From positions 131,679 to 195,678 of the forward strand of contig CAXHJY010000818.1 of the NCBI GenBank assembly GCA_964016885.1: 64,000 nt of DNA. Direction: 5' to 3'. Shown piece after piece: positions 31,801-32,357 of the stretch. Source of the DNA: Eledone cirrhosa. Taxonomy: Eukaryota. The first letter of the stretch is position 1. Each line of letters starts with the position of its first letter. Both the position numbers and the translations under genes were made by a program. Under the pieces are notes generated by a model. The model saw only the letters and a list, made by a program, of their open reading frames with translations. It had not been told where the DNA came from and did no database searches.

Positions 31801-31944
31801 ATATATATATATATATGTATGTAGGAGGTGAGTTTTATTGTAGCACAATAAAGCAATGCAAATATCGGATAAGTAGCACTCAACAGTTTATAGGAGTGGA
31901 GTATAAATAATATAAAACAAAAAGATTGTTAAAAGAGTTCCATG

Positions 31945-32015
31945 TATTTTATTATGCGCATTTCAAAAACAAATATCATCATGGGACGATATTTGCGTTC
32001 TCATCAGATAAAATA
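31945..32015 (-). ncRNA. Type I minimal hammerhead motif (inverted twin)
   Basis: Reverse complement of 32095-32165. Confidence 0.8.
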
Positions 32016-32094
32016 GGGAGACATTAAATCAACATATGTTGATTTAACACTTCACTGCTCGCAAGTGTTTTTTAAGCTTCATATCATGTCTCCC

Positions 32095-32165
32095 TATTTT
32101 ATCTGATGAGAACGCAAATATCATCCCATGATGATATTTGTTTTTGAAATGCGCATAATAAAATA
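32095..32165 (+). ncRNA. Type I minimal hammerhead ribozyme motif
   Basis: TATTTTAT-CTGATGA-[gaacgcaaatatcatc ccat gatgatatttgttttt]-GAAA-TGCGCA-TA/ATAAAATA. Perfect 8-bp stem I. Confidence 0.82.
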
Positions 32166-32357
32166 CATGGAACTCTTTTAACCATCTTTTGATCTTATAT
32201 ATATATATATATATATATATATATATTTTATATATATATATATATATATATATATATATATATATATATATATATTATATATATATATATATATATATAT
32301 ATATATATATATATATATATATATATATATATATATATATATATATATATATATATA

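What the first reader, a model, noticed from the sequence alone, without database searches (positions are those of the whole stretch)
31825..32197. Second dual-hammerhead palindrome from a distinct family, between two (TA)n tracts
About 105-bp arms each carry TATTTTAT-CUGAUGA-long stem II-GAAA-UGCGCA-UA/AUAAAAUA. Stem I matches the 27.9-kb element but stems II and III are unrelated, which looks like structural conservation. The spacer has its own perfect palindrome (taaatcaacatatgttgattta). The left arm continues about 95 bp further, consistent with a full 3' end plus a shorter inverted copy.
Basis: partly seen in the sequence, partly recalled or inferred. Interest (0 to 1): 0.72.

Follow-up and report, generated by a model that had tools for sequence, protein, structure and literature searches.

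The report
Head-to-head Hydra retrotransposon end stump
The mirror-image sequence with a hammerhead (self-cutting RNA) motif on each strand is real, but it is the ordinary stump of a very abundant Penelope-type jumping gene: two short copies of its end joined head to head in a TA repeat, whose read-through RNA is predicted to zip into one long hairpin rather than cut itself.

Summary
Observation confirmed: two type-I hammerhead motifs face outward on opposite strands (cut sites after 32157 on +, 31953 on -), between (TA)n tracts. It is not a new element. The genome holds 1,670 exact matches to a 26-nt core; the same sequence is the terminal repeat (pLTR) of ~800-aa RT/GIY-YIG ORFs whose motifs match the Hydra clade of Penelope-like elements. 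Head-to-head inverted stumps, a one-sided tail, junction palindromes and opposite-strand hammerhead pairs are all in print (PMC4209133, PMC3846280, PMC8557442). The 27.9-kb element is a related family with homologous tail and ORF, so the shared stem I is inheritance, not convergence. The two ribozymes cannot share one RNA. One modest extra: in 30 of 31 junctions one arm ends at +105 and the other at +185, arms share alleles, and in 19 neither arm could be copied from the other, which favours two-primer reverse transcription over snap-back. This scan has reported the same kind of structure before on other DNA of this and other genomes. Cleavage untested.

The parts
31769..31821 (.). Left (TA)n target tract, ending in a TG/TA remnant next to the long end
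   Evidence: Sequence; 32 of 34 classed arm ends in 23 position-sampled loci have (TA)4+ within 30 nt vs 10.5% background
31822..32024 (-). Long arm: 3' end of the element from -17 to +185 (numbered from hammerhead C3), read leftwards
   Evidence: 40 scored genomic matches at 96-100%
31822..31901 (-). One-sided 'tail' (+106 to +185) between the two recurrent 3' ends; contains a 10-bp hairpin; in full-length copies it continues ~85 nt further to the ORF start codon
31945..32015 (-). Type-I hammerhead, left copy: CUGAUGA from 32007, predicted cut after 31953
32025..32046 (.). Junction palindrome centred on CATATG (32033-32038): the fold-back point; followed on the left arm by a 39-nt gap relative to the symmetric copy L011
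32034..32200 (+). Short arm: -69 to about +97/+105, ending in TA-like sequence that merges into the right tract
32095..32165 (+). Type-I hammerhead, right copy: stem I 32095-32102/32158-32165, core 32103-32109, stem II hairpin within 32110-32145, GAAA 32146-32149, self-complementary stem III 8-mer 32149-32156, predicted cut after 32157
32197..32359 (.). Right (TA)n target tract

Best explanation
The feature is two 5'-truncated copies of the 3' end (pLTR, carrying a type-I hammerhead motif) of an abundant Hydra-clade Penelope-like retrotransposon, lying head to head in a (TA)n tract, and it was likely made in one insertion event. Shown: identity to the pLTRs of RT/GIY-YIG ORFs, high copy number, TA flanks, one long (+185) and one short (+105) end, shared alleles between arms. 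Inferred: the element's endonuclease cuts both strands of (TA)n; each 3' end primes reverse transcription on the same source RNA, one at +105 and one at +185; both cDNAs stop early (often near -69) and are joined through a short palindrome or microhomology (here CATATG), giving the fold-back; the 39-nt gap is junction filler or a later deletion. Inferred for the ribozyme: it is the parent's pLTR hammerhead, with a 2-bp stem III that would need a second same-strand copy (8-bp self-complementary duplex) or the element's protein to cut; in this stump a read-through RNA would instead form a ~120-bp hairpin, so it is probably silent.
For: 1,670 exact matches to a 26-nt core vs 0 for the reversed control. 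Same sequence flanks ~800-aa ORFs as pLTR-ORF-pLTR (L062, L073, L075, L077) and with inverted partial copies (L031, L064, L074, L078). ORF model (pLDDT 82) best matches telomerase RT structures; Hydra motifs RLRW, DKT, CxCX5C, CxxC..E, N..CxH present, no CX2-5CxxC. Among the first 100 listed matches all 19 pairs closer than 10 kb are divergent, 118-6308 bp apart. 36 of 39 arm pieces in 23 position-sampled loci end at +100-105 or +179-187. 30 of 31 head-to-head junctions in 52 loci are long+short. Arms share common variant alleles at 81 of 126 informative comparisons vs ~8% (max 31%) with shuffled partners. The short arm reaches further upstream in 19, the long in 5, equal in 6 (p=0.007), so in 19 neither arm contains the other; in L124 and L136 the arms do not overlap at all. 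In vitro a Poseidon PLE cuts and extends both strands and starts RT at two internal sites that define the tail (PMC11167929). Folding: whole element -190.6 kcal/mol as one hairpin; active monomer fold -10.8 vs MFE -15.8; homodimer MFE -42.5 with the 8-bp intermolecular stem III.
Against: No cleavage, RNA or insertion assay. Pfam names no RT or GIY-YIG domain in the ORF, the Foldseek E-values are modest (1e-7) and the listed hits cover the polymerase, not the nuclease; Hydra membership rests on motifs and by-eye comparison with published sequences, not a tree. The window's own arms differ at 5 of 115 sites, 2 of them common variants, no closer than half of other arms. Post-insertion deletions or gene conversion in palindromes could mimic part of the arm asymmetry and allele sharing; subfamilies active at different times also produce concordance. 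30 of the 52 loci were picked by similarity to the long arm. In the sister 27.9-kb family some junctions are long+long (L088, L094), and one locus (L095) joins arms of two different families, which fits two RNAs.
Confidence: 0.9

Rival explanations
1. Same element, but the fold-back forms by snap-back: the first cDNA folds on a palindrome such as CATATG and copies itself, or an antisense RNA self-primes (the model of Arkhipova et al. 2013).
For: Junction palindromes are frequent (window, L011, L028); arms share alleles; model in print (PMC3846280 passages).
Against: DNA snap-back needs one arm to contain the other; in 19 of 30 long+short junctions the short arm has upstream sequence the long arm lacks while the long arm has the tail, and two loci have non-overlapping arms.
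Confidence: 0.3
2. The ~255-nt unit (-69 to +185) or the whole palindrome is its own non-autonomous mobile element (SINE/MITE/monomeric retrozyme-like) that is transcribed and re-inserted as a unit.
For: 12 of 39 position-sampled arms start at -69 to -65; the 27.9-kb family has a similar hot spot at -72 to -78 (14 of 37 arm pieces, sample biased to near-identical copies). Three loci share one junction (L013, L018, L024).
Against: Junctions otherwise differ from locus to locus; short and long copies share the same alleles within each subfamily, so short copies form no lineage of their own; no same-strand tandem among 100 listed matches; the shared junction sits on an internal 7-nt inverted repeat that can be reused.
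Confidence: 0.12
3. A functional bidirectional, ambisense twin-ribozyme RNA (viroid-like or host-regulatory).
For: Both cores are intact and stem II variants keep pairing, mostly by G-U changes (99% paired).
Against: Intact cores are expected in young copies (96-98% identical); the motif is inherited from pLTRs; any read-through RNA is predicted to be a long duplex; two-sided covariation not above shuffle.
Confidence: 0.03
4. Assembly artefact (long-read fold-back chimera).
For: Palindromes next to microsatellites can be mis-assembled (general knowledge).
Against: Arms differ at 5 of 115 sites and by a tail and a 39-nt gap; fixed long/short ends recur in 30 other-and-own junctions across many contigs.
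Confidence: 0.01

Closest known systems
Hydra clade of C-terminal EN+ Penelope-like elements, incl. Hydra-1_Obim (Craig et al. 2021, PMC8557442; section 11, passages, supplement passages)
   Same: Single ORF, RT then GIY-YIG; RW[K], DKT, CxCX5C, CxxC and CxH motifs, no CCHH; canonical hammerhead; (TA)n insertion; inverted 5'-truncated copy plus one-sided tail.
   Different: Unit length ~3.7-3.9 kb with ~1-kb 3' UTR and a Asn-rich ~80-aa low-confidence linker vs generally <3 kb; tail ~80 nt vs 30-40 bp quoted for PLEs; hammerhead unlike the one listed for Hydra-1_oBim (by eye); much higher copy number than the 'small number of families' described.
PLE pLTR hammerheads and opposite-strand dual min-HHRs (Cervera and de la Pena 2014, PMC4209133; parts 1-2 of 4 read)
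   Same: Type I, long stem II, short palindromic stem III predicted to need a dimer; pairs 100-700 bp apart on opposite strands already reported in Schistosoma, most motifs ascribed to truncated PLEs.
   Different: 8-bp A-U-rich stem I and 12-bp stem II; the canonical G10.1-C11.1 closing pair is not evident here (stem II base is weak, G-U/A-U).
Adineta vaga Penelope insertions (Arkhipova et al. 2013, PMC3846280; passages)
   Same: Head-to-head inverted pLTRs, palindromes at the inverted junction, optional tail on one of them.
   Different: Target-site duplications cannot be read in (TA)n here; paper favours self-priming on an antisense template.
PAc, Poseidon of Anolis carolinensis (Frangieh et al. 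2024, PMC11167929; parts 1-2 of 4 read)
   Same: Two internal RT start sites defining the tail; both target strands cut and extended; AT-rich target; hammerhead not needed for insertion and active only with protein.
   Different: Different clade; PAc start sites lie inside the ORF, here both ends lie upstream of the start codon (+185 is ~85 nt before it).
L1 twin priming (Ostertag and Kazazian 2001; seen only as a reference title, content recalled)
   Same: Two primers from one target site on one RNA give an inversion.
   Different: Recalled: L1 arms barely overlap and the second site is not fixed; here both sites are fixed and arms usually overlap.

Membership tests
EN+ Penelope-like elements | Single ORF with telomerase-like RT | tested here: met
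   ~800-aa ORFs with YRDD; best Foldseek hits are TERT structures; Pfam silent
EN+ Penelope-like elements | C-terminal GIY-YIG endonuclease | tested here: inconclusive
   GIY-YIG-like motif pair at 678-695 shared with homologues, folded with pLDDT ~90; no library or structure hit names it
EN+ Penelope-like elements | pLTRs in partial tandem, direct or inverted, with one-sided tail | tested here: met
EN+ Penelope-like elements | Hammerhead in the pLTR | tested here: met
Hydra clade | RWK-type N-terminal motif and DKT in place of DKG | tested here: met
   RLRWT (RLRWI in L031) and SDKT; third residue of RWK differs
Hydra clade | CxCX5C linker, CxxC and CxH around E and N, no CCHH | tested here: met
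   only one Cys between the two GIY-YIG halves
Hydra clade | (TA)n insertion preference | tested here: met
   32 of 34 ends vs 10.5% background
Hydra clade | Falls in the Hydra clade in an RT tree | not tested
   Reference sequences were seen only in the paper's supplement and compared by eye
Neptune clade | CX2-5CxxC linker and CCHH finger | tested here: not met
   my first guess, rejected
Naiad | N-terminal endonuclease, no canonical hammerhead | tested here: not met
   Nuclease motifs are C-terminal and the hammerhead is canonical in order
Type-I hammerhead ribozyme | Core CUGANGA / GAAA / UH with stems I-III | tested here: met
   stem III only 2 bp as monomer; no Rfam model reaches E<=10
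Type-I hammerhead ribozyme | Self-cleavage | not testable with these tools
   Needs an assay
Non-LTR retrozymes | Same-strand tandem repeats each with a hammerhead | tested here: not met
   0 same-strand pairs within 10 kb among the first 100 listed matches; all 19 close pairs divergent; definition from bioRxiv 2026.07.22.740005 part 1 of 5

The most novel reading that the evidence does not exclude
Penelope-type fold-backs are made by fixed-site twin priming: a dimeric RT-endonuclease primes both strands of one (TA)n cut on a single RNA at two set positions (about +105 and +185 from the hammerhead core, the same geometry in two diverged families), the +105 primer running ahead and the +185 primer displacing it, with the hammerhead domain acting as the ruler. 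This would replace the published antisense self-priming model and explain the tail, the inversion and the -70 truncation hot spot together.
Probability: 0.35. Interest if true: 0.5.

Novelty: new member of a known kind. Interest (0 to 1): 0.17.

Why it matters
As a sequence it matters little: it is one of well over a thousand stumps of a retrotransposon, in an arrangement already described. It is useful as a caution (such stumps look like ambisense twin-ribozyme RNAs or MITEs but are neither) and because this genome offers thousands of young junctions with which to decide how Penelope-like elements make their inversions, an open mechanistic question. It also shows that the Hydra clade is large here (38,390 first-look candidates for the RT query, 149 scored) and that such hairpins could be a sizeable source of double-stranded RNA.

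Tried and rejected
Rfam scans: only low-complexity or hairpin miRNA matches, no hammerhead family listed. Pfam on ORF pieces, full ORFs and 5 of 25 homologues: nothing meaningful. Neptune assignment: my first reading, dropped after motif test. Covariation within 17 hand-picked family hammerheads: pairs kept but no two-sided signal above shuffle; the sequences are too close. Idea that the two arms come from the upstream and downstream pLTR of one pLTR-ORF-pLTR RNA: rejected as a general rule because both arms can extend hundreds of bases past -69 (L021, L026, L031, L065, L067). The subfamily-by-5'-end table used a crude rule that mis-sorted several long arms; I use instead. In one search, 39 opposite-strand pairs included some from separate neighbouring insertions (34 long+short); restricts to adjacent 5' ends. 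A bacterial promoter scan is irrelevant to this genome. No ORF of this family elsewhere in the window. Literature searches found no paper on cephalopod hammerhead fold-backs or on twin priming in Penelope elements; subscription journals and bioRxiv supplements are not covered, and Repbase families were not checked.

Full report
Observation. The window shows an inverted repeat with arms 31910-32032 and 32078-32200 (123 nt, 93%) between (TA)n tracts. A descriptor scan finds a type-I hammerhead in each arm, pointing outward: core at 32103 (+), cut site after 32157; core at 32007 (-), cut site after 31953; both with 8-bp stem I, a 12-bp stem II hairpin and a self-complementary stem III 8-mer; 30 shuffles gave no comparable hit. 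Rfam lists no hammerhead family even at E<=10. The left arm extends 88 nt further, to 31822.

Copy number and parent. The window lies in a 3.0-Gb animal genome; the only named homologue of the ORF is from the octopod Argonauta hians, so an octopod host is my inference. The long arm gave 1,490 first-look candidates, 40 scored at 96-100%; a 26-nt core pattern has 1,670 exact matches, control 0. At L031 the same sequence runs directly into a broken RT ORF and also ends an inverted copy that carries the nuclease region. The RT query gave 38,390 candidates, 149 scored. Of 20 RT loci fetched with wide flanks, all show this sequence or its sister subfamily next to the ORF, several as pLTR-ORF-pLTR. 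The intact sister ORF (821-codon frame, ~800 aa from the first Met) models at pLDDT 82 and its top structural matches are telomerase RTs, E about 1e-7. Motifs RLRW, DKT, YRDD, CxCX5C, CxxC..E, N..CxH and the absence of CX2-5CxxC and CCHH match the Hydra clade as defined in PMC8557442 section 11; the published Hydra-1_Obim protein looks alike by eye. No tree was made.

Anatomy across copies. Numbering from hammerhead C3, arms end at two places: in 23 loci taken in chromosome order, 17 of 39 arm pieces end at +100-105, 19 at +179-187, 3 elsewhere; 32 of 34 classed ends abut (TA)4+ against 10.5% background. Among the first 100 listed matches, 19 pairs lie within 10 kb and all 19 are divergent. 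In 52 loci (29 chosen by similarity to the long arm, 23 by position) there are 31 head-to-head junctions: 30 long+short, 1 long+long. 5' ends pile up at -69 to -65 (12 of 39), at a CATATG palindrome. L011 is perfectly symmetric around it, and the window equals L011 minus 39 nt of the long arm, so the 'spacer palindrome' is the fold-back point.

Relation to the 27.9-kb element. It too is abundant (1,401 candidates), has ends at about +107 and +184 and a 5' hot spot at -72 to -78, lies next to ORF pieces 38-55% identical to this family's over the longer matches in 3 of 25 loci, and its sequence downstream of the cut site aligns with this family's above all 300 shuffles (66 vs max 59.5). The shared stem I is therefore inherited. 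Across the many hammerhead types in the fetched loci, stem I sequences differ yet pair, and the commonest stem III segments are palindromic (stem I pairing was required by the descriptor). Within this family pairing is kept (99% of 406 cells) mostly by G-U changes, but two-sided covariation is not above shuffle.

How it likely works. The hammerhead belongs to the parent's pLTR. As a monomer its stem III has 2 bp and the active fold is 5 kcal/mol above the MFE, while two same-strand copies are predicted to form the classical dimer through the 8-bp palindrome (-42.5 kcal/mol vs 2 x -15.8), as described for metazoan PLE hammerheads, which cut weakly in vitro (PMC4209133); the PAc hammerhead cuts only with its protein and is dispensable for insertion (PMC11167929). 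In the stump the copies are on opposite strands, so a read-through RNA is predicted to be one long hairpin (-190.6 kcal/mol, z -24.8). For the inversion: arms share variant alleles at 81 of 126 informative comparisons against ~8% for shuffled partners, with some near-private alleles, pointing to one source. The short arm reaches further upstream in 19 junctions, the long arm in 5, equal in 6; in those 19 neither arm contains the other, which simple cDNA snap-back cannot give, and L124 and L136 have non-overlapping arms. With the in vitro finding that a PLE protein extends both target strands and starts at two internal sites, two-primer reverse transcription is my preferred model. Caveats: later deletions and gene conversion in palindromes, partial ascertainment, the window's own arms being no closer than average, long+long junctions in the sister family, and one two-family junction (L095). 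The cause of the -70 hot spot (RNA 5' end, RT stall, or TA-like microhomology) is unresolved.

What is known. Opposite-strand hammerhead pairs 100-700 bp apart are reported in PMC4209133 (parts 1-2 of 4 read); head-to-head pLTRs with junction palindromes and a one-sided tail in PMC3846280 (passages); inverted truncated copies, tails, (TA)n targeting and the Hydra clade, with an octopus member, in PMC8557442 (passages, section 11, supplement passages). PMC13282606 (passages) counts Penelope-like families in Octopus vulgaris but does not mention hammerheads. Seven searches found no paper applying twin priming to Penelope elements. Earlier AI notes of this scan reached the same reading on other DNA; they are not independent support.

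Verdict. Real, ordinary: a truncated head-to-head insertion of a Hydra-clade Penelope-like element. New member of a known kind; interest 0.17. The only upside is the mechanistic hint from the long/short rule.

Noticed in passing
window:32361-32487: A third fold-back in the same TA tract (arms 90% complementary). Its ends match the 3' half of another hammerhead family (L089:2705-2757, 92%), cut off just upstream of GAAA, so it has no CUGA core: a still shorter Penelope-like stump.
   Followed up: partly
window:32623-32765, 9888-10005, 5765-5828: Another TA-flanked repeat with palindromic forms; pieces hit 37 and 36 of the fetched loci. Not identified; earlier notes on this genome describe a scrambled-order hammerhead repeat that may or may not be this one.
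   Followed up: no
window:55443-55493: A further single type-I hammerhead-like motif with palindromic stem III and 5-bp stem I.
   Followed up: no
L095:1345-1748: Inverted junction between the long tail of this family's older subfamily and an arm of the 27.9-kb family, joined over a few shared bases: either priming on two different RNAs or a deletion between nested insertions.
   Followed up: partly
L062-L081, L107-L136: At least ten different type-I hammerhead sequence types occur in the flanks, often themselves as inverted pairs (L070, L074, L081, L104): (TA)n tracts act as landing sites for many Penelope-like families.
   Followed up: partly
L073:2308-4773 and similar loci: A sister subfamily (82-83% identical RT) has many open ~820-codon frames, suggesting recent activity; the ORF has an Asn-rich, low-confidence stretch between RT and nuclease, recalling the Asn-rich inserts of rotifer Penelopes.
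   Followed up: partly
L033/L034 (C1:249.03 Mb and 248.08 Mb): Two 9.2-kb loci 99.4% identical in inverted orientation, a recent segmental duplication or assembly duplicate; they also hold a different, Neptune/Poseidon-looking RT-GIY-YIG ORF.
   Followed up: no
L108 and L112: Two loci 5.6 Mb apart share the same 49-nt junction insert and subfamily alleles, a possible case of a fold-back copied as a unit or a duplication.
   Followed up: no
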